Source: Dictyostelium discoideum
Lineage: Eukaryota
Assembly (NCBI GenBank): GCA_000004695.1
Contig: CM000153.2
Coordinates: 4,448,001-4,512,000, forward strand
Length of the DNA stretch: 64,000 nt
Direction of reading: 5' to 3'
Shown here: one piece after another, positions 16,134 through 45,332 of the stretch
Layout of the letters: each line of letters starts with the position of its first letter
How positions within the stretch are numbered: the stretch's first letter is position 1
Position numbers and translations under genes: made by a program
Notes under the pieces: model-generated
Database searches by the model: none
Told to the model about the DNA's origin: nothing
The model's input: only the letters and a program-made list of their open reading frames with translations

Positions 16134-17961
16134 TTATTCTCTTTTTTTTAATTGAATTGAAAAATCTTTTGGGTGAATTGTAATTCCAAAAACTTCAGTT
16201 TCGTCAATCTTTTTTCCACCATTTGAAAACTCAAAATTTAATAAAATATTTGAGCAAGCTAAAAATAAATTAATTTCACTAATGATATTACCTGGGCAAT
16301 TACGTGGACCAATAGAGAATGGTAAAACTACTTTATCCAAATCATTTGGTAATATTTCAGTTGTAATATTTGATTTTGTTTCAGTTGTAGCCTCCATTTC
16401 TCTAGTTGGGGTTTTATTTTTATAATATTCAACCCATCTTTCTGGTTTATAACTTGATGGATCATCAACAAAGTTTTGACCAATACCATATAGATTTGGA
16501 ACGATTTGAGTACCTTTTGGAATAAATATACCACCTGATGTCATAAAATCCTCTTCCGAAACTCTAATTAAACTCAATGGTGCTGGAGTACGCATTCTAA
16601 GGGTTTCTTTAATTGCACCAACTAAATATGGACAATCATCTCTATATTTAGTAGTTACAGCTTTACAATCTTTTCCAACAACTGAAATTAATTCTTCATA
16701 TGCTTTCTTTTGAATTTCTGGATTATTTGCTAAGAAAATACAAAACCATTCAAGTGTACTTGCATTTGTATCACTTCCAGCTAATAAGAAATCCTTATTA
16801 TTAAAATTATTTATTTTAATTAATATTTTTTTTCATTTATTATTTATTATTTATTTTAATTGTATACTTACAGTTGAAACATGAATTACCATATCTTTTT
16901 CTTTACCACCAGTTGAAATAATTAATTGATCCATTAAATCTCTTGGATTTGATTCATCAAGATTTTTAATATGTTCATTATATATTTCTTCCAAGAATGT
17001 ATAAACTTTTTTAGTATCTTGTTCTAACTTTTTATTTTTAAAATAAAAAAATGGTTGTGTATACCAAACATAATCACCAAGATTTCCAGATCCAAGATTT
17101 TCCAAAATATTATAAAATGGTATTATTAATTGTGAAATTGGTCCTTCTTCAACACTTTCATTTTCACTAATTGTTTTACTGAATCCAATACTCATAACAA
17201 TATTCATTGTATATTTGTTATAATATTTATGTGGGAAAAACTATAATTTAAAAATAAATATTAAATTTTAATATATATGTGAGTTTTAATATTTTTAAGA
17301 TAATAATTATACTACTACTACTACTACTTACAGGTTCACCACTTTTTGCATAATATTGCATCGAATTAATTAAAAAGTTAGCTTGTTCTTCGATTAAAGT
17401 TATTACATTTAAAACTTTTGTTTTTGTGAGTGCAGCAGAAACATATCTACGTCTATTTTTCCATGATTCACCAACTGAAAATGATATATCAACTAGATTT
17501 CCACTATAAATTCTAATAGATTCTGATGAAGCTCTATTATAAAAATTTAAATGATTTTTAACATATAATTCACGAAGTATATTTGGGTCTGTTATGACCA
17601 TTGATCTTTCATCACCCATCCATAATGTAAAAATTCCACCAAATTTCTTTGCTAATTCTGTTAAAGAACGATGTGGTTGACTTCCAAATAAATGTAAATG
17701 TCCTAATACTGGAATTGCCAATGGTTGCTTTGGATCATTTTTACTAATTTTTTTATTCTTTTTTGTCTATTAATTTAAAAAATAAAGATTAAAAAAAAAA
17801 AATAAAAAAAAAATAAAATAAAATATTTTAATTAAAAAAACAAATAAATATAGATTTTAAAAATAAAAATAATAATAAAGTAATAATTATTTTTAAAACT
17901 TACAAAATCATAGGCTAATAAACCAATTAATAAATATAAAATTATTAAGCCAATTCCCATT
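16134..17961 (-). CDS. Cytochrome P450 monooxygenase, about 506 aa. Exons on the minus strand: 17905..17961, 17332..17766, 16872..17240, 16134..16793.
   Basis: N-terminal membrane anchor MGIGLIILYLLIGLLAYDF, then a Pro-rich hinge …PKQPLAIPVLGHLHLFG…. I-helix motif FLLAGSDTNASTLEW, K-helix ETLRMRTP, and the heme-binding signature PFSIGPRNCPGNIISEINLF near the C-terminus. All three introns begin GTAAGT and end (T)nAG. Confidence 0.85.
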
Positions 17962-32268: not shown

Positions 32269-34353
32269 TCAATTGTTAACAATGAATTCATTATAAGCTA
32301 TAATTTCAAAAGTTCTTGGACCTTGTGGTAAATAAGGGAATGTAATATTGAACCCTTTTGGAATTGGACCAGTTGCAGTTAAACTCTTTTTGATTTGAAA
32401 TTGTTCATTAATAGTTATAATTGATTTTGCCCAATTCTTTGGATTGTCTAATGTGAATGATGATGTAAAGAAACCAAGATTGTTACCATTTAAAAACAAT
32501 GATTTGGTAACATTGTCATAGGATAAATTAAATTCAAGGTTTGTACAATTTTGTAAATTATTAATATCTAAATTTGTAAATTTATTTCCACTAAAGATAG
32601 CACTAGTCGATGGTTGCAAATAATTACAAACAACACATGATGGTGCTTGACCACCAATTAAATTATTACTAATGTCAAAATCAATTGAACACCAAGTTTC
32701 ATCGATTTGTCCAGTTAATAAATTATCACTAAGATATAAAGAAATATCTTTTGAAAATAAATTTGATGGGAAACTTGTTGGAATAATACCACCCATTTTG
32801 TTATTTCTTAAATAAAGGATACTTAGTTTTTTATTGAATAAATTGAAATTTATTTCATTAAAGTTACCATTTTCAAACTTGCTATAATTGGGTTTTTTTT
32901 TTTTTTGATATAAAAAAAAAAAGATATTAAAAAATGTCCACTGAAATTGAATTTTTAAAGGTTAAATACTTACAAAAAGGTTAATGTTGATGGTAAAGCA
33001 GAGAATGGGAATTCACCATTTACATTGAAAATATTTCCTGCATTTGGAATATATCTTTTTTTTTTTTTTTTTCCAAAAGTTATTAATTAGTAAAAAATTA
33101 TCTGGATCGAAAGTAATGATCGAGGACTACTTACATAGAAACATCTAAACTTTCATTATAGTTGGATAAATCAATAAGGCCAAGTGGAGTGTCAATTTGG
33201 TAATTAATAGCACTATTTTTATAATTAAATTAAATTAGAATAAAGATAAGTATCAATATTATAATTTTTTAAAAAACTTACAAGCCAGTGTTTTTATTAG
33301 TACTAATTGGAATTGAAGCCAATGCCACTGGGAATGGGTAAACAACAGAATTTGATGATGTTAAAGAGAATGAAGTTACATTTGCATATGTTGAAAAAGC
33401 AGAGAATGAGTTTGAATCTGTGCCCGGTAAAAGGGTAAGTTGTCTATTGTTTTTATTATAAATAATTAGTAAATATTAATTATTGTATTGTATAAAAAAA
33501 CAAAAAAAAAAAAGAAAAACATACAATAATTCCATTAGAATATTATTCATTGATGGGATGAAATGGGTGTATGCAAAGAAGTATTCAAATGATGTCGACG
33601 TTTCAAGTAAATCATTGATATAATTGATTTTATATTTTGGATTTAAAGTTTGGGTGATGAGAGAAAACTTTTTAACATTTAAAAGACTTGAGAAATAAAT
33701 GTTTAATGGGCCAGAAAGATAAACCTTTGTACTTAAAACTGGAATTGTAATTGATTTCCCAACACCAATATCAACATCAAATATCGAAGAATTACCATTA
33801 ATTAAAGAAATCGATTTTAATGATTGAGGGAATAATCCAATTAAAAAGTTTTTAGAAACTTTGAATCCATCGATATTTCTAAAGAGAGATTTTAAATATT
33901 AATTTTGTTAGTATATATATATATATATATATAATTTTTTTTATTCTAATTTTAATATCTTACAATGTATTAATTGATGAAAAGCATTGAAAATCAGATG
34001 GTGAAATTAAATTTTTATTTGTTTGGGTCGCTCTAATATTTACAACATTTTGTGCATCACAATTAACCAAAGCATTCATAGGAGTTAATGGTGAATTACA
34101 AAAGTCGTAAAGAAGAGTGTTTGAATTATAATAAAATTCCTGGTTGACATTAGAAATTTTATTAAAGAAATTGAAAGTACATTGATCTGTAAAATTTAAA
34201 TTTAAGAATAAAAATTAGATAAAAAAAAAAAAAAAAAAAATTAAAATAAAATAAAATTAAATACTTACATTCTGATGAAGAAAGGGAAAATACATCCCCA
34301 ATAAAAAATAACAGAACTGACAAAACAATAGAGAAAAGTTTGACTAAATTCAT
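32269..34353 (-). CDS. Family member B of the LRR receptor-like family: an intact 531-codon ORF encoding signal peptide plus LRRs only (no EGF/TM part). Exons on the minus strand: 34269..34353, 33964..34186, 33525..33878, 33282..33443, 33135..33212, 32974..33054, 32269..32881.
   Basis: MNLVKLFSIVLSVLLFFIGDVFSLSSSE|YQCTFNFFNKISNVNQ…QCFSSINTL|LNIDGFKVSKNFLIGLFPQSLKSISLINGNSSIFDV…|LQLTLLPGTDSNSF…|FAINYQIDTPLGLIDLSNYNESLDVSM|IYIPNAGNIFNVNGEFPFSALPSTLTFL|FKFENGNFNEINF…LTGQIDETWCSIDFDISNNLIGGQAPSCVVCNY…GPIPKGFNITFPYLPQGPRTFEIIAYNEFIVNN*. Exon sizes and phases (85/223/354/162/78/81) parallel the full-length paralogs. The ORF stops exactly where the paralogs continue …ITAYNEFIPQIDSVIRY…. Confidence 0.65.
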
Positions 34354-34556
34354 TTTTTTTTTTTTTTTTTTTTTTTTACTCAATAAATGAAATAAAAAAC
34401 TTTAAGAACAAAAAACAGAAAAAAAAAATTTTCAAAAAAAATAGAAAAAAAAAAAAAAAAAAAAAATACCCTTTATTTCGGAATAAAAAAAAAAAATTCA
34501 AGAAAAAATTTTAAAGAGACGAACCATCTAATCTCTCAAAAGGAATGAAAACATTT

Positions 34557-37205
34557 TTATTGATGTGATTTCTTTTGAAATACTTTAAAATTAAATACGA
34601 AAATAAGCATTAATATTATAATTGGGATTATTATTACTAAAATTATGGAGAAATGGTTTGTTACTGCTACTAAATTGATAGATATCACTCCCACCATTTT
34701 TACTTGAATCACTATTATTACTTTCATTACTACTATCACTACTATTATTACTATTACTATTACTATTACTATCTATTACTATTACTATTGCTATTACTAC
34801 TACTATTACTACTATTACTACTATTACTACAAATTTTATTTTGATTATACAAAGGATAATAATTACCCTCCATTTATGATTGTTTTGGATTACTAACAAT
34901 ATAGTGTTATTATTATTAATTGTACATATTATATCTGATGGTGGATAGCATTTAATTTCAAGTTGAGTATTTGAAATGATATCGCATGGTTTATTATTGA
35001 TGGTTACTGATAAATCTATAAATATTACCGAACCAACCATTTAATATTATAGAATACCAAGTTCAGTTTGTTGTAGTTGTTGTGAATTAACTTGATGATT
35101 TGGTGTTAAACACATTGAATCAATCCATTGATTTGTACAATTACACTGACCATTGATTTGATTACAAATACCTTGATTACATCCTAATCCATTATTACAT
35201 TCACATACACCATTTATATAATTACAGAAACTACCATTTTCATCATTACAATCTGATGAACATTTCAATGATCTTAATTCACATTGATAACCTCTCCATT
35301 CATTTGAAAAACAATCACAAACACCCTTCACATAACTATATTCACCACTATTTTTAGCACAATTTGGAATTGGACAATTACTACCATTACAAATTTGATT
35401 CAATTTGAAATTAAAACTATTCGATACATTCATAACTTGAACTAAACAATTAATTTCTTTATTATTATTTACAATACCACCACTATTACTACCTACTTGT
35501 ATCACTGTTACCTTATTATTGATGATTTTATTTGAATTATAAAGATAACATTGAATTTGATTGAAATTACTTGATAATACTAAACAAGGTTCGTTTGAGA
35601 TTAAAACATTGATAACCGTATTATTATATGCAAAGTTTTTACCATTGATAATGAAATAATCTGAATATCTAATAACTGAATCAATTTGTGGTATGAATTC
35701 ATTATAAGCTGTAATTTCAAAAGTTCTTGGACCTTGAGGTAAATATGGAAATGTAATATTGAATCCTTTTGGCATTGGTTGAGTTGAAAAGATATTATTT
35801 TTCAATTGGAATGCTCTATTTGGTGTTATAATAGCAGTTGCAAAATTTTTATCAAACAATGCATGATTGGCGATTTACCACTTATTAAATTATTTCTAAT
35901 GTTACTAACATCAAAATTAACTTCACACCACTATCATCCATTTCTCCAGTAATTTCATTATTATATAAATAATATTCACTATGGGAAATTTAACTTGGTA
36001 ATGGAGTTTTAATACTATTGTTTTGAAATTTTATATATTTAATATTTGTCAATTTTTCATTAATATTTTTAAATTTACCTAAATTTCCATTCTTAAATTC
36101 ACTCTATAAAAAAGATTTAATCATTAATAACTTTTAAATGATTTTAATACTTTTACAATTGGTTGAATATATTTACAGTAAAAACAAATTTTTTGGTAAT
36201 CCAGAAAATGGAAAATCACCATCAATATTGAATAATTTACCTGAACTATTAAATTAATAGAAAAAAAGTTATAAAAGGAGTTAATAAATATCTTGTTTCA
36301 TTTGGGGTAGGATCTCATTCAATACTTTAAATAACCTTTTAATTTAACCAAAACTTACATTGATACCTCATTTTCATAATTATTTGATAAATTAATAAAG
36401 GTAGGAGGCGTATCTATTTGATAAGTAATTGTACTTAATATATTGTTTTTTTTTTAAAAAAAGTTAAAATAATTGTAATAATAATAAAAAATAATGGAGA
36501 AAATAAATAAAAAATATTTACAGACCAGTATTTTTATTTCAGCTGGTATTTCACTTAAAGCAATAGGGAAGGGATATATTTGAGTTTTGTCTGAAGGTGT
36601 TATTGAAAATGCAATTACATTTGAAAATTTTGAAAAAATTGAAAATGAATATATATCAGCTCCACCTAAAAGTGTGAGTTGACTTTTTTTTATTAAAAAA
36701 TGTTTTTTTTTTAAATAATTATTAATATTTATAACATTGGGTAAAAAAAAAAAAAAAAAAAAAAATATATATATAAAAAATAATAAAAAAAAAAAAAATT
36801 TGTAAATACAAACAAAATAGATAAATTAATGTTTTTCACTGATGGTATATTATGAGAATATATGTTATAAATATTGAAAATGGCAGTCGTGGTATCATTC
36901 AAGTCATTTATAAAATTTATTTTATATTTTGGTTTTTGAGTTTGGTTTTTCAACTGAAATTTTTGAACATTTAAAAAACTTGAGAAATATATATTTAGTG
37001 GTCCAGAAAGGTACAATAATAAACTTAATGATTCTACTTGTATAATTTTATTGAACCCAATTTCCACATCAAATAATGATGAATTACCAATAAATAATGA
37101 CATACATGTTAAAGTATTTGGAAATTTTCCTATTAAAAAATTATTTTCAACTTTAAATAAATCTATATTACTGATTTATATTATTTACATATTAGATTTA
37201 TGTAT

Positions 37206-37241
<36 letters not shown>

Positions 37242-38110
37242 TTTTTTTTTTTTTTCAAAAACACTTACATAGAATTTAATGATGAAAAACATTGAAAATC
37301 AATTGGAGATGAACCATTCTAATACCTTCAACAGCTGTTGAACATTATCACAATAATTTATATAAATGATTTATTAGTTAAATAAAATTAGTTAAAAATA
37401 CTCGCCTAAATTATTGCTCATGTTTTATCAGAATCTTGTAATAGAAAAATAAAATAAAATTAAATAAATAAATATATATAAATAAAAATAAAGTAATAAG
37501 TTGATGTTATCGACAATATCTAAAATTTATTATACATGTTTTTTTATTATTGAAAATTTTTACTTATTATATTTGAGATTTAAAATTATGTTTATGAGTT
37601 TTTCAATCGACATTAAAAACTCACCACGTGACTTTTTCCCACCTAGGTGAGAAAAGTCTAATTATATAAACATAAATTATTTTAGTTTGTGAGCGAGATT
37701 GTATCTAATTTAAAATCTTGATAAAACATAATTTTATTGTAACAATTTAATTATTACATAATTATATTACAACAAACAGCTCCCTTGTTATTACATATGA
37801 AATGGTTATATGGATCAAGTGCTACAGCACTACAAAAACTATATCCATTGAATGTTGTATCCAATGGGTGCTCTTTAGAAGCCTGATTAATTTTATTAAA
37901 TAAATGTAATGTACAATTATCTTTTTACAAATGAAAAGGATTGTTGAGATTATTAATTTTCTACTCAAAAAAAAAAAAAAAAAAAAAAAAATTAATTACA
38001 AACTTACACTCTGATTCAATGAGTTGATTTTGTGAATTAACTAAATTTTTATTTTGACATATTATAAATAAAAGTAAAAGAATAATACTATTTAAAACTC
38101 CCATGTTCAT
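34557..38110 (-). pseudogene. Decayed paralog of the LRR/EGF/TM family (closest to the copy at 39639..43127). Its 3' exon is frameshifted and its LRR exons are degenerate.
   Basis: An exon-1-like start MNMGVLNSIILLLLFIICQNKNLVNSQNQLIESE|GTAAGT lies at 38110..38026. The 3'-exon homologue 35047..35859 matches 40200..41010 nearly base-for-base, but a 1-bp deletion at ~35040-35047 (…gaacttggtattctaTAAtattaaatgg… versus …ctattaatattaaatgg…) creates a stop (QTELGIL*). The LRR portion around 35860-35960 reads …EMDDSGVKLILMLVTLEII** with multiple frameshifts relative to …EMDDSWCSITFDISNNLIGG…. Confidence 0.75.
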
Positions 38111-38595
38111 TATAAAAAAAAAAAAAAATAAATAAATAAAAATAAAAAAAAAAATAAAAAAAATAATAACAATAAATAGATTTTTTACAAAACCATAAAA
38201 AAACCAAAAATAAAAAAAAAAAAAAAAAAAACCAGATCGATAGTTTTGATATTTTTACAATTTTTTTAAATTAATGTGGCAAATAAAAATTTTATTTTAT
38301 TTTATTTTATTTTGTTTTTTTTTTAAAAAATGTTAATATTCTTTTTTTTTTTTTTTTTGGGTGAACCCCTAAATTATTGTTGGCAGATATTTAGTATTTT
38401 ATTATAATTTTTTTTTTTTTTTTTTTTTAAATCCCTATCATTTAGATTTAAAACACACATTTTATTTTAAAATTTACTTTTTATAAATAAAATTTTTTTT
38501 TTATTATTTTTCATTATTATTATTATTATTATTATTATAATTATTATTATCTTATTATTATTATTATTTATTATTATTATTACAATTTCAATGCA

Positions 38596-39559
38596 TTAAA
38601 TGATATAATGAAAATAATTATTGATATCCATTGTTGATTCATAGTATTTTTCATTTTCTTTCCATTCCAATACATTAAATGATTTCAATTCTCGAAGTTG
38701 TTGTTGAGAAATTGATGGCTGATTAATTTTTTTAATTTTAAAATTATTGCCTAATCCCAATAACATTAAGTCCGATTTACTAACTCTACCAATTGTTATT
38801 TTTTCATTTGCAATTGACATCAAAGAAATATTGGATAAACTTACAAACGGTAATTTTTTTTTTATTATTAAAATTTAAAAATCATATTAATTTAAAATTA
38901 ATACAATTAAGTAATACAAGTAGATTTATATGCACTTGAAAATAATTTTAATTGTAGATTGGATACACTTGAAAATAATTTTATTAATATTAAAAAAGGT
39001 ATTATTTTACAATTATTATAAATATTTGTTTTTTACTTTATTTATTTATATATAATTTATTTACTGGATTTATTTTACTATCTATTCATTTATAGCAATT
39101 GCAAATGAAAAAATAACAATTAGTAGAGTTAGTAAATCGGACTTAATGTTATTGGGATTAGGCAATAATTTTAAAATTAAAAAAATTAATCAGCCATCAA
39201 TTTCTCAACAACAACTTCAAGAATAAAAATCATTTTATGTATTCGAATGTAAAGAAAATGAAAAATACTATAAATCCACAATGGATATCAATAATTATTT
39301 TCATTATATCATTGATCAAGAAATTGAAAATATTGAAAATATATACTTGTCTAATATTTCAAATCAACATACATATATTATGTTGAAAATCTTTCAAATA
39401 TCGAATTTGATAAAGTTTATCTTGGTTTTGAAGTTAAATCAACATAGCCGAATTAATTGCAATTACAAGAAAATCAAACGGTTGCACCCAATTCTCCAGG
39501 TTTCAACAAATTTTATTGATAATTATATATTTTCATTTGGGATAATGAAGGTAATGTAA
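38596..39559. repeat. Large inverted repeat. The left arm 38596-38830 and right arm 39102-39330 are about 93% identical in opposite orientation, separated by a ~270-bp AT-rich spacer. The right arm extends to ~39559.
   Basis: The left arm (minus strand) encodes MMSIANEKITIGRVSKSDLMLLGLGNNFKIKKINQPSISQQQLRELKSFNVLEWKENEKYYESTMDINNYFHYII*. The right arm (plus strand) encodes …IANEKITISRVSKSDLMLLGLGNNFKIKKINQPSISQQQLQE* …STMDINNYFHYIIDQEIENIENIYLSNISNQ…. These are two differently degenerated copies of the same coding fragment. Confidence 0.8.
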
Positions 39560-39638: not shown

Positions 39639-43127
<3,489 letters not shown>

Positions 43128-43400
43128 TCCAAAAAAAAAAATATGTAAAAAAAAAATATGCAAAAAAAAAAAAAATATGCAAAAAAAAAAAGAAGATCGA
43201 GAAAATAAAAAACCCCCAAAAAAACCGATAAAAAAATAAAAATATGCAAAAAAAAAAAAAAAAAAATAAAAAAATGAAGATCAAGGCAATGAAAAAGCGA
43301 CAAAAAAAAAAAACGATAAAAAAAAAAAACTACAAAAACATTTAGCATCTATAAGTCATTTAAAAAAAAAAAAAAAAAAAAAACTTCATTTAAGATTTTA

Positions 43401-45332
43401 TTAAAATTTAATATCTGTTTCTTCCAACTCTGTGAAATTTTTTTTATCTTTAAATATTTTTCTAGTTATTACTTTGCATTGATTACTTTTAATAACCAAA
43501 ACTAAAAGGATTATTAAAATTACAGATGGAATTAAAATTGATATTATAACTAAAATATTTTTTCTGGAAAATTTTGGATTTTGAGCATCCTCCTTATTTT
43601 CACCATTAATATCATTGCCACTACTATTACTACTATTACTACTACTACTACTACTACCATTATTAATACACACGCTAATACCATCTAAAGGTGTTGGGTT
43701 ATAAAATCCACTCCAATGAACATTGTTTTGAACAACTGATAATTCCAGATTATTATTATTATATTGGTAACAATAGATGTCTGATGGATAACATTCGACC
43801 ATATAGTCAGAATCTGCAACAATGTCACATTCTATTTGATTTACTTTAATAGTTAGATCATTTCGAAAAATTTCACTACCAAACCAACCATTTAATATTA
43901 ATAGATTACCAAGAGCACCTCGTTTAATTTCTTGTGAGGTAACCATAGTATTAGGTATATTACAATTTGAAGCAGTCCATTGAATAGTACAATTACATTG
44001 ACCAAATAAATAATCACAAATTCCACCATTACTACAACCTAATCCTTCATTACATAGTCTACCACTACAATCATCGAATATTCTATTTTCATTACATTCG
44101 CATTTACCATTAATATTATTACAAATACCACCACCATCATTATTACTACAATCTGATGAGCATTTCAATGGTTTTTGTTCACATTGATAACCTCTCCATT
44201 TATTGGAAAAACAATCACAGACTCCACTCTCTTTATTATATACACCTCCATTTTTTATATTACATACCGGAATTGGACAATTAATACCATTACAAATTTG
44301 ATTCAATTTGAAATTAAAACTATTCGATACATTCATAACTTGAACTAAACAATTAATTTCAATACTACTACTACTACTGCTGCTATCACTGTTACTATTA
44401 TTATTGATGATTTTATTTGAATTATAAAGATAACATTGAATTTGATTGAAATTACTTGATAATACTAAACAAAGTTCGTTTGAGATTAAAACATTGATAA
44501 CCGTATTATTATATGCAAAGTATTTACCATTGATAATGAAATAATCTGAATATCTAATAACTGAATCAATTTGTGGTATGAATTCATTATAAGCTGTAAT
44601 TTCAAAAGTTCTTGAACCTTGTGGTAAATATGGAAATGTAATATTGAATCCTTTTGGCATTGGACCAGTTACTCTATTATTCTTTGTAATTTCAAATAAT
44701 GTATTTTCAATTTTAATATTTTCTGCCCAAATATTTGGATTATCTAATTTGAATGATATACCAAAACCAAGATCTCTACCATATAGCATCAATGATTTAG
44801 TTTGATTATCATATGATAGATTTAGTTCAATAGTAGTACAATCTTCTAAATGGTTAATATCTAAATTTGTGAATCTATTACCATTAACAATTGCACTAGT
44901 AATTGGATTAAGGTAATGACAAACTACACATGATGGTGCTTTACCACCAATTAAATTATTACTAATATCGAAAGTTATTGAACACCAACTATCATCCATT
45001 TCACCTGTTAATTTATTATCATTTAAATATAACTCAAGTAAAACATCCATTGATTTAATAAAAGATGATGTTGGTAATTTACTGGTTAAACCATTAAATG
45101 ATAAATCTATTATATTTGTTTTCTCTTTGAAAATATTAAAATTGATTACACTTATATTTCCATTTTTCAATTGACTTTTGAAAAAAAAAAAATTAGTATA
45201 CTATTATTATATTTATCTTGTGTTTTAATTATTATTATTTTAAAATAGTTACAATGTATTTAAATTTGGTGGTAACACTGAAAATGGAAAGTTACCATTA
45301 ATATTGAATAAATTACCTGCCTTTGCAATATA

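What the first reader, a model, noticed from the sequence alone, without database searches (positions are those of the whole stretch)
34557..38110. Pseudogenised family member: a 1-bp deletion makes a premature stop in the 3' exon and the LRR exons are scrambled
35047..35859 is nearly identical to 40200..41010 of the neighbouring gene. At ~35040-35047 a single missing base turns …ELGILLILNGWFG… into …ELGIL*. Upstream LRR-coding sequence (35860-35960) carries several frameshifts. The copy still keeps an exon-1-like start at 38110. This shows ongoing gene death in the array.
Basis: seen in the sequence. Interest (0 to 1): 0.5.

Follow-up and report, generated by a model that had tools for sequence, protein, structure and literature searches.

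The report
Decayed ComC-like receptor gene, mis-annotated
This is an ordinary dead copy of a Dictyostelium cell-surface receptor gene, broken in about a dozen places rather than one; the reference genome lists its two largest surviving pieces as separate protein-coding genes.

Summary
The window is D. discoideum AX4 chromosome 4. Window 38110..34511 (minus strand) is a non-processed pseudogene of a 7-exon ComC-like gene (signal peptide, LRR, TIG, EGF-like repeats, TM) in a tandem array.

They are one of at least 11 frame-breaking indels plus one in-register TAA, including a 445-nt insertion in exon 2 and a 179-nt deletion in exon 7. The exons are not scrambled: all seven are colinear with the paralogues, and all 12 splice sites are kept.

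Orthologues are intact in another D. discoideum-clade assembly (932 aa) and in D. citrinum (1146 aa). The gene is broken differently in a third lineage and almost wholly deleted in a fourth. An independent assembly, 99.76% identical to AX4, carries every lesion, so these are not sequencing errors.

The LRR half evolves faster at codon positions 1 and 2. The 3' block (35775..34950) stays 97-98% identical to neighbour B, and A and B co-vary by lineage there, which indicates gene conversion.

AX4 annotates the wreck as two genes, DDB_G0286435 (386 aa) and DDB_G0286433 (242 aa). Continuous ORFs in automatic models need introns of 25-47 nt. This is an ordinary finding, useful mainly as an annotation correction.

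The parts
34511..38110 (-). Whole non-processed pseudogene ('A'): remains of a 7-exon ComC-like gene, from the start ATG (38110-38108) to the ancestral stop TAA (34513-34511)
   Evidence: Projection of the intact 932-aa orthologue (L003 4514-7864) onto the window; tblastn of paralogues
38008..38110 (-). Exon 1 remnant (signal-peptide-like MNMGVLNSIILLLLFIICQNKNLVNSQNQLIESE), no indel, donor GTAAGT kept
   Evidence: 96.1% to L003 exon 1
37269..37920 (-). Exon 2 remnant, broken by a 445-nt insertion and a 19-nt deletion (junction 37310/37309)
   Evidence: net +426 nt relative to L003 exon 2
37330..37774 (-). 445-nt AT-rich insertion (438 nt plus the second copy of a 7-bp direct repeat AGCTGTT); absent from the L001 and L003 orthologues; origin unknown
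   Evidence: no Rfam match; no other copy in the window or the four loci held (L001-L004)
36814..37170 (-). Exon 3 remnant (LRR), still an open frame, no indel
36522..36682 (-). Exon 4 remnant with a 4-nt frameshifting deletion at about 36540 (IPAEINKNTEF becomes IPAEIKILV)
36359..36433 (-). Exon 5 remnant, no indel
36177..36245 (-). Exon 6 remnant with an in-frame 12-nt deletion
34511..36101 (-). Exon 7 remnant. Frame-breaking indels: -1 (35931), +1 (35868), -179 (35854), -1 (35050), -2 (35021), -1 (34868), +1 (34772), -14 (34664), -2 (34598). Also several in-frame indels
35990..35992 (-). In-register nonsense codon TAA (orthologue has ATT); also the stop of the annotated gene DDB_G0286435
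35853..35854 (-). Junction of a 179-nt deletion that removes about 59 codons (CHYLLINTRL...GFNFGYISL) at the end of the LRR region
35047..35775 (-). Residual ORF annotated in AX4 as DDB_G0286433 (XP_637753.1, UniProt Q54LS7, 242 aa, 'IPT/TIG domain-containing protein'); starts at an internal Met and ends at the frameshift-induced TAA
35990..38104 (-). Extent of the annotated AX4 gene DDB_G0286435 (386 aa). The model is built on the decayed LRR half, uses introns of 40, 32, 53 and 47 nt, and translates intron and insertion sequence
34950..35775 (-). 3' block (TIG plus EGF-like repeats) evolving in concert with neighbour B (40913..40097)
35016..35057 (-). The same 42 nt are a GTATTC...TATAG pseudo-intron used by one automatic model
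34569..34646 (-). Remnant of the transmembrane segment (IILVIIIPIIILMLIFVF...). A 2-nt deletion at 34598 creates the premature stop at 34557
39639..43127 (-). Neighbour B: intact 7-exon paralogue (939 aa). It shares the homogenised 3' block with A, and conversion from it may have refreshed that block

Best explanation
Window 38110..34511 (minus strand) is a non-processed pseudogene, a tandem-array member that has died in situ. Its ancestor was a ComC-like type-I membrane protein gene with seven exons, encoding a signal peptide, a ComC-type LRR domain, a TIG beta-sandwich, EGF-like Cys repeats, a Ser/Asn stalk and a TM segment.

In the AX4/NC4 lineage the gene lost function and then accumulated the following. 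Shown:
- a 445-nt insertion and a 19-nt deletion in exon 2;
- a 4-nt deletion in exon 4;
- a nonsense codon in exon 7;

Also shown: promoter-proximal sequence, the start codon and all splice sites are still recognisable. The LRR half shows relaxed constraint.

Inferred: the TIG/EGF block remains 97-98% identical to the functional neighbour B because A and B exchange sequence there by gene conversion. This is why a 270-codon open frame survives and was annotated as a gene.

Inferred, not shown: any transcript would carry premature stops and would make no functional receptor.
For: Identity of the locus. DDB_G0286431 matches the window at 100%. DDB_G0286433 is 100% identical to window 35775..35047.

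Intact orthologues. My 7-exon model of L003 4514-7864 gives exactly the annotated 932 aa, with LRR_ComC at 69.9 bits (cut-off 27) and a TIG match. D. citrinum has a 1146-aa gene whose last-exon ORF is 817 aa and reads through the TM.

Lesion catalogue. Nucleotide projection gives 11 frame-breaking indels and one in-register TAA, with all 12 splice sites kept.

Not sequencing errors. L005 (GCA_054883475.1) is 99.76% identical over 16.7 kb. Within A it differs only by two homopolymer lengths in non-coding DNA.

Relaxed constraint. dN/dS for A (AX4 vs L003) is 0.51, against 0.23 for B over the same divergence. With D. citrinum as outgroup, the LRR half has 32 AX4-specific and 16 L003-specific changes (chi2 5.3). 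At codon positions 1+2 the counts are 23 vs 7; at position 3 they are 9 vs 9.

Concerted evolution of the block. A-B identity within a genome is 97.4 (AX4), 97.2 (L001), 97.3 (L003) and 89.9 (D. citrinum). Orthologues between D. discoideum and D. citrinum are 86.0-87.5. At seven sites A=B in AX4 differs from A=B in L001/L003, and no site between 35775 and 35070 separates A from B across genomes.

Repeated loss. L001-A has two different lesions. L004 retains only a 273-nt fragment.
Against: - No expression or proteomic data were available, so a transcript with some non-coding role, or translation of the 242-aa ORF, is not excluded.
- dN/dS in the 3' block (0.57) is below 1, and the relative-rate test shows no acceleration there (13 vs 20). 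I attribute this to conversion from B, but it would also fit residual constraint.
- Evidence for conversion events inside the AX4 lineage itself is thin: one AX4-specific site shared by A and B (35737) and five B-like sites at 35067-34967.
- Two automatic annotations do produce ORFs across the region.
Confidence: 0.93

Rival explanations
1. The residual ORF is a real, shortened gene. DDB_G0286433 (242 aa, TIG plus EGF-like repeats), and perhaps DDB_G0286435 (386 aa, LRR), would be functional products of a gene that was split or truncated rather than killed.
For: Both are annotated protein-coding genes in AX4. The 270-codon frame is open and has a TIG match above the Pfam cut-off (23.9 vs 20.9 bits). 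dN/dS in the block is 0.57 and shows no rate acceleration. A naturally truncated relative, DDB_G0286431 (Z), is conserved across lineages.
Against: DDB_G0286433 starts at an internal Met, with no signal peptide for a Cys-rich extracellular module. It ends at a frameshift-induced stop inside a conserved segment (ELGIL|LILNGWFGNIHI), and recognisable but frameshifted coding sequence continues to the TM. The DDB_G0286435 model needs introns of 40, 32, 53 and 47 nt, translates part of the 445-nt insertion and intron 3, and ends at the nonsense codon. The 12 conserved introns of A (L003 orthologue) and B are 67-199 nt, and the D. discoideum median is 104 bp (PMC4683709). Conversion with B explains the open frame.
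Confidence: 0.04
2. The gene is functional and is rescued by alternative splicing, which skips every lesion.
For: An automatic model in GCA_054883475.1 (ACTFIT_005393, 1210 aa) reads continuously from the ATG at 38110 to the stop of DDB_G0286431. A 42-nt GT..AG interval (35057..35016) removes both stops in frame.
Against: That model needs six extra introns of 459, 181, 42, 71, 25 and 412 nt, and it also moves the acceptor of conserved intron 4 from 36434 to 36414. It deletes the Cys-rich end of the LRR region, 15 residues of the second beta-sandwich and the TM. It also fuses two genes while skipping the second gene's signal exon. Introns of 25 and 42 nt are far below the 67-199 nt seen in this family. 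Intact orthologues have none of these introns.
Confidence: 0.02
3. The lesions are errors in the AX4 reference assembly, which was Sanger-sequenced from AT-rich DNA, and the real gene is intact.
For: Elsewhere in the window the reference differs from L005 in a cluster of G/C-for-T/A calls (43225..42535), which look like reference errors or local polymorphism.
Against: L005, an independent assembly, has every lesion of A, including the 445-nt insertion, the 179-nt deletion and the 1- and 2-nt deletions. The only differences in A are two homopolymer lengths in non-coding sequence.
Confidence: 0.01

Closest known systems
ComC-like proteins of Dictyostelium (Pfam PF24141 LRR_ComC, PF24143 Beta-sand_ComC_2nd, PF01833 TIG; comC is the 'communication mutant C' gene, from my own knowledge of the literature)
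   Same: The intact orthologue of A has an LRR_ComC domain (69.9 bits), a TIG match, Cys-rich EGF-like repeats and a C-terminal hydrophobic segment. Paralogues B, C and D share this architecture.
   Different: The AX4 copy cannot encode this protein. Only fragments of the domains remain in frame. No function has been tested for any member of this particular array.
Non-processed pseudogenes in tandem arrays that keep exchanging sequence with a functional neighbour (textbook examples recalled from memory: CYP21A1P/CYP21A2, globin pseudogenes)
   Same: The copy died in situ, with introns and flanks retained and multiple frameshifts. One segment is kept nearly identical to the live neighbour.
   Different: The direction and recency of conversion in AX4 are not established. 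There is no evidence that the dead copy donates lesions or diversity to B.
Rapidly evolving tgr (TIG-domain) recognition gene families of Dictyostelium, with pseudogenes and gene conversion (PMC12745789)
   Same: It is a cell-surface TIG-containing family in tandem arrays. Copy number and functional state differ between closely related isolates.
   Different: This is a different family (LRR_ComC N-terminal domain). It is not the tgrB1/C1 locus, and no evidence for hypermutation or a recognition role was obtained here.

Membership tests
ComC-like LRR-TIG-EGF membrane protein family (ancestry of the locus) | LRR_ComC domain (PF24141) | tested here: met
   The intact orthologue scores 69.9 bits against a cut-off of 27, over residues 100-405. 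AX4-A exons 3-7 align to the same region of paralogues by tblastn, but in three different frames and with stops.
ComC-like LRR-TIG-EGF membrane protein family (ancestry of the locus) | IPT/TIG beta-sandwich (PF01833) | tested here: met
   The 270-aa residual ORF scores 23.9 bits against a cut-off of 20.9; P0030 scores 24.4 bits.
ComC-like LRR-TIG-EGF membrane protein family (ancestry of the locus) | EGF-like Cys repeats | tested here: inconclusive
   EGF_TEN hits in paralogues are below the Pfam cut-off (28-35 bits vs 65). The repeated Cys spacing is visible in the translation. The EGF_TEN hit for A itself did not reach E 0.01.
ComC-like LRR-TIG-EGF membrane protein family (ancestry of the locus) | N-terminal signal peptide and C-terminal TM segment | tested here: inconclusive
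   Hydrophobic N-terminus (SIILLLLFIIC) and TM-like remnant (IILVIIIPIIILMLIFVF) were seen by eye. No predictor was run. In AX4 the TM is out of frame with the rest.
Non-processed (duplicated, in-situ) pseudogene | Disabling lesions relative to an intact orthologue | tested here: met
   11 frame-breaking indels and 1 in-register nonsense codon.
Non-processed (duplicated, in-situ) pseudogene | Introns and genomic position retained (not a retrocopy) | tested here: met
   All 6 donors and 6 acceptors are conserved. The locus is syntenic between B and DDB_G0286431 in five genomes.
Non-processed (duplicated, in-situ) pseudogene | Relaxed selective constraint | tested here: met
   dN/dS is 0.51 vs 0.23 for B. 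In the LRR half, lineage-specific changes are 23 vs 7 at codon positions 1+2 and 9 vs 9 at position 3. This is not seen in the 3' block.
Non-processed (duplicated, in-situ) pseudogene | No functional protein product | not testable with these tools
   No transcriptome or proteome data are accessible. A literature search for DDB_G0286433 found nothing.
Polymorphic pseudogene (intact allele still segregating in the species) | An intact allele in a conspecific isolate | tested here: inconclusive
   The gene is intact in GCA_054859355.1, which is labelled D. discoideum. However, dS to AX4 is about 0.1, and species limits in this clade are provisional (PMC12745789).
Transposable-element insertion (the 445-nt insert) | Target-site duplication | tested here: met
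   The 7-bp direct repeat AGCTGTT flanks the insert, and the orthologues have a single copy.
Transposable-element insertion (the 445-nt insert) | Terminal repeats, coding capacity or multiple genomic copies | tested here: not met
   Only 5 bp of terminal complementarity (TGTTG/CAACA). No convincing TIR. No other copy in the window or the four loci held (L001-L004). The whole genome could not be searched.

The most novel reading that the evidence does not exclude
The dead copy is not inert. Because its TIG/EGF block still recombines with the live neighbour B, it may act as a sequence reservoir that feeds variants, or lesions, into a cell-surface receptor. The intact, broken and deleted states of A among D. 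discoideum-clade isolates may then be a functional polymorphism in a cell-cell communication family, rather than neutral birth-and-death turnover.
Probability: 0.12. Interest if true: 0.5.

Novelty: new member of a known kind. Interest (0 to 1): 0.27.

Why it matters
The main value is an annotation correction. DDB_G0286435 and DDB_G0286433 (UniProt Q54LS7) in the AX4 reference, and the 1210-aa fusion model ACTFIT_005393 in a newer assembly, are fragments or artefacts of one dead gene. They should not be counted as family members, used in orthology sets or targeted as genes.

The locus is also a clean, dated example of birth-and-death turnover with concerted evolution in a Dictyostelium surface-receptor array. 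The gene is intact in two lineages, broken independently in two, and deleted in one.

Tried and rejected
- Exhaustive enumeration of GT..AG gene models for the L003 orthologue, with intron GC below 0.17, gave no solution. I replaced it with a hand-built 7-exon model that reproduces the annotated 932 aa.
- Looking up the AX4 contig through DDB_G0286431 failed: it is not on record. AX4 gene calls had to be recovered through protein searches.
- Exact look-up of my 939-aa model of B found nothing. The AX4 reference differs from L005 at two codons and at the intron-1 donor, so B's annotation in AX4 remains unknown.
- The first protein search missed the AX4 entries, because poly-Asn words dominated the candidate list.
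- An Rfam scan of 34000..39500 found nothing.
- A blastn of the 445-nt insertion against the window and the four loci then held (L001-L004) found only low-complexity AT matches. The inverted-repeat scan gave no terminal repeats. It is therefore unclassified. The public bacterial, viral and metagenome collections were not scanned, because they would not hold Dictyostelium repeats.
- I checked whether the insertion could be excised exactly as an intron. No GT..AG pair inside the 7-bp repeat restores the ancestral sequence (by inspection).
- The first attempt to map model P0031 onto L005 failed because the look-ahead was too strict. A relaxed search succeeded.
- The genome paper (PMC1352341) is not held. 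Intron statistics were taken from PMC4683709 instead.
Full report
SOURCE AND CONTEXT

The window has about 20% G+C. It encodes DDB_G0286431 at 100% identity (window 32820..32272). It also encodes DDB_G0286433 at 100%. The source is therefore Dictyostelium discoideum AX4 chromosome 4.

The minus strand carries a tandem array of paralogues:
- D: about 51000..47367
- C: 47049..43401
- B: 43127..39639
- A, the finding: 38110..34511
- Z, a short member (DDB_G0286431): ending at 32269

Pfam places the family with ComC. Matches are LRR_ComC, TIG, the ComC second beta-sandwich, and weak teneurin-type EGF hits.

CHECK OF THE OBSERVATION

One T is missing at 35050/35049. B reads ELGILLILNGWFGNIHIDLSV. 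A reads ELGIL*Y*MVGSVIF, with TAA at 35049-35047 and again at 35043-35041. A 2-nt deletion at about 35021 then restores the frame (IDLSVTINNKPCD...).

It is 98.0% for 35775..35047 and 99.0% for 35046..34950. It is only 63% for 35859..35776. The near-identical block is therefore 35775..34950.

The start codon at 38110 and the frameshifts in 35860-35960 are also real.

The word 'scrambled' is not supported. tblastn with three paralogues finds every exon in the ancestral order.

AN INTACT REFERENCE

Protein searches led to syntenic loci in five other assemblies.

In L003 (GCA_054859355.1, labelled D. discoideum) the orthologue of A is annotated as a 932-aa gene. I rebuilt it by hand as seven exons with introns of 82, 81, 118, 86, 118 and 67 nt. 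The result is exactly 932 aa, with an N-terminal hydrophobic leader, LRR_ComC (69.9 bits), TIG, Cys repeats, a Ser-rich stalk and a TM segment.

In D. citrinum (L002) the orthologue is a 1146-aa gene. Its last exon is an 817-codon open frame that reads through the same ELGILLILIGWFGNIHIDLSV segment and the TM.

LESION CATALOGUE

I projected the L003 exons onto AX4 through a nucleotide alignment (independently against L001).
- Exon 1 (38110..38008): no indel.
- Exon 2 (37920..37269): a 445-nt insertion at 37774..37330, flanked by the 7-bp direct repeat AGCTGTT, and a 19-nt deletion at 37310/37309.
- Exon 3 (37170..36814): intact.
- Exon 4 (36682..36522): -4 at 36540.
- Exon 5 (36433..36359): intact.
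- Exon 6 (36245..36177): an in-frame -12.
- Exon 7 (36101..34511):
  - an in-register TAA at 35992-35990, where the orthologue has ATT;
  - frame-breaking indels of -1 (35931), +1 (35868), -179 (35854), -1 (35050), -2 (35021), -1 (34868), +1 (34772), -14 (34664) and -2 (34598);
  - several in-frame indels.

The ancestral stop is at 34513-34511.

All six donors and six acceptors are retained. This is a non-processed pseudogene with at least 12 independent disabling changes, not a gene with one fresh frameshift.

NOT AN ASSEMBLY ARTEFACT

L005 (GCA_054883475.1) is 99.76% identical to the window over 16.7 kb. Within A it differs only by two homopolymer lengths in non-coding DNA, so every lesion is present there.

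By its near-identity to AX4 and its contig size, L005 is probably the AX2-214 assembly described in PMC12745789. That is my inference; the accession-to-strain mapping was not checked.

RELAXED CONSTRAINT

For A (AX4 vs L003), dN/dS is 0.51 (dN 0.0485, dS 0.096). For the last exon of B over the same divergence it is 0.23.

I polarised changes using the D. citrinum orthologue as outgroup.
- LRR half: 32 AX4-specific vs 16 L003-specific substitutions (chi2 5.3).
- All of that excess lies at codon positions 1+2 (23 vs 7). Position 3 is equal (9 vs 9).
- 3' block: no excess (13 vs 20).

CONCERTED EVOLUTION OF THE 3' BLOCK

Upstream of 35775, A and B are only about 66-68% identical by blastn. Inside the block they cannot be told apart.

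A-B identity within a genome is 97.4% (AX4), 97.2% (L001), 97.3% (L003) and 89.9% (D. citrinum). Orthologues between D. discoideum and D. citrinum are 86.0-87.5% identical.

No site between 35775 and 35070 separates the A orthologues from the B orthologues. Seven sites have one state in both AX4 copies and another in all four L001/L003 copies. This is the signature of gene conversion after the lineages split.

For the AX4 lineage itself the evidence is weaker: one private site shared by A and B (35737), and five B-like sites at 35067..34967.

Conversion from B is my explanation for two facts. First, 270 codons remain open. Second, lesion density in the block (2 in 826 nt) is lower than in the LRR exons (7 in about 1.3 kb) or the tail (4 in about 0.44 kb). 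That difference is suggestive and was not tested statistically.

REPEATED LOSS

L001 is close to L003 (dS 0.016). Its copy of A has two different lesions: loss of the intron-2 acceptor with 14 nt of exon 3, and replacement or deletion of about 210 nt before the TM.

In L004 ('D. cf. discoideum') only a 273-nt fragment lies between B and Z.

None of these lesions is shared with AX4. The gene at this position has therefore been lost at least three times.

HOW ANNOTATIONS HANDLE THE LOCUS

AX4 carries two hypothetical genes here.
- DDB_G0286435 (386 aa) maps to 38104..35990. It has eight exons and introns of 40, 32, 113, 393, 53, 276 and 47 nt. It translates part of the insertion and of intron 3, and it stops at the nonsense codon.
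- DDB_G0286433 (242 aa; XP_637753.1, Q54LS7) is the residual ORF 35775..35047.

In L005 the automatic model ACTFIT_005393 (1210 aa) runs from the ATG of A to the stop of Z. It invents introns of 459, 181, 42 (35057..35016), 71, 25 and 412 nt. It thereby drops the Cys-rich end of the LRR region, part of the second beta-sandwich, the TM, and Z's signal exon.

The twelve conserved introns of A (L003) and B (AX4) are 67-199 nt. The D. discoideum median intron is 104 bp (PMC4683709).

COMPARISON WITH KNOWN SYSTEMS, AND NOVELTY

This is a standard in-situ pseudogene in a birth-and-death, partly concerted multigene family. It resembles textbook cases such as CYP21A1P or globin pseudogenes (recalled from memory). 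It also resembles the turnover described for Dictyostelium tgr genes (PMC12745789).

The ancestry in the ComC-like family passes the domain tests for LRR_ComC and TIG. The EGF and signal/TM features were judged only from the sequence.

What is new is limited:
- two reference 'genes' are fragments of one pseudogene;
- the comparative dating of its decay;
- the evidence for continued A/B homogenisation.

Nothing points to a new kind of element. The 445-nt insert with a 7-bp duplication is the one unexplained item.

VERDICT

Biologically the finding is ordinary. Its practical use is re-annotation.

Noticed in passing
window 37330..37774 (minus strand): A 445-nt AT-rich insertion in exon 2 of the pseudogene, bounded by a 7-bp direct repeat (AGCTGTT). 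It has no terminal inverted repeats beyond TGTTG/CAACA, no Rfam match, and no second copy in the window or the four loci held. It contains a short GC-richer hairpin-like stretch (CTCACCTAGGTGGGAAAAAGTCACGTGGTGAG). It could be a mobile element, filler DNA or an organellar fragment.
   Followed up: partly
window 42535..43225, especially 43025 and 43029: The AX4 reference differs from the 99.76%-identical assembly L005 by a cluster of nine substitutions and one 1-nt indel. At eight of the nine substitutions AX4 has G/C where L005 has T/A. Two of them turn the intron-1 donor of neighbour B from GTATGT into GCATGC. This is either reference error in a low-quality stretch or a local strain difference. 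If real, B depends on a GC-AG intron in AX4.
   Followed up: partly
window 32269..34186 (DDB_G0286431, 'Z'): The next gene downstream is a naturally truncated family member (LRR only, 472-608 aa across lineages). Its homology ends about 90 nt into the homogenised block (32364..32282 vs 35775..35693, 92.8%). The AX4 model (472 aa) also lacks exons used in other strains' models (525 aa). It may be an older truncation, or a secreted LRR-only form.
   Followed up: no
window 43401..47049 and 47367..~51000 (genes C and D): C and D are a very recent tandem duplicate: 98.1% identical in the 3' block, with last-exon dN/dS of 0.84. They correspond to a single gene in L001, whereas D. citrinum has two copies. 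Copy number in the array therefore varies between lineages.
   Followed up: partly
L001 14076..19775; L004 1533..9559; L005 6001..11839: Automatic annotations of the new Dictyostelium assemblies fuse neighbouring array members into chimeric models of 1250, 1878 and 1210 aa, evidently by bridging broken or adjacent copies. Family counts taken from these proteomes will be distorted.
   Followed up: partly
L004 9899..10171: In 'D. cf. discoideum' (GCA_054859205.1) only a 273-nt piece of the TIG/EGF block remains between B and Z. It is slightly closer to B (92.8%) than to AX4-A (89.3%).
   Followed up: no
window 39980..40060 and L002 15980..16400, 16940..17400: Asn-codon (AAT) tracts inside the last exon vary greatly in length between copies and species: about 40 Asn in AX4-B, and more than 130 Asn twice in the D. 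citrinum orthologue of A. They swamped the word-based protein search.
   Followed up: no
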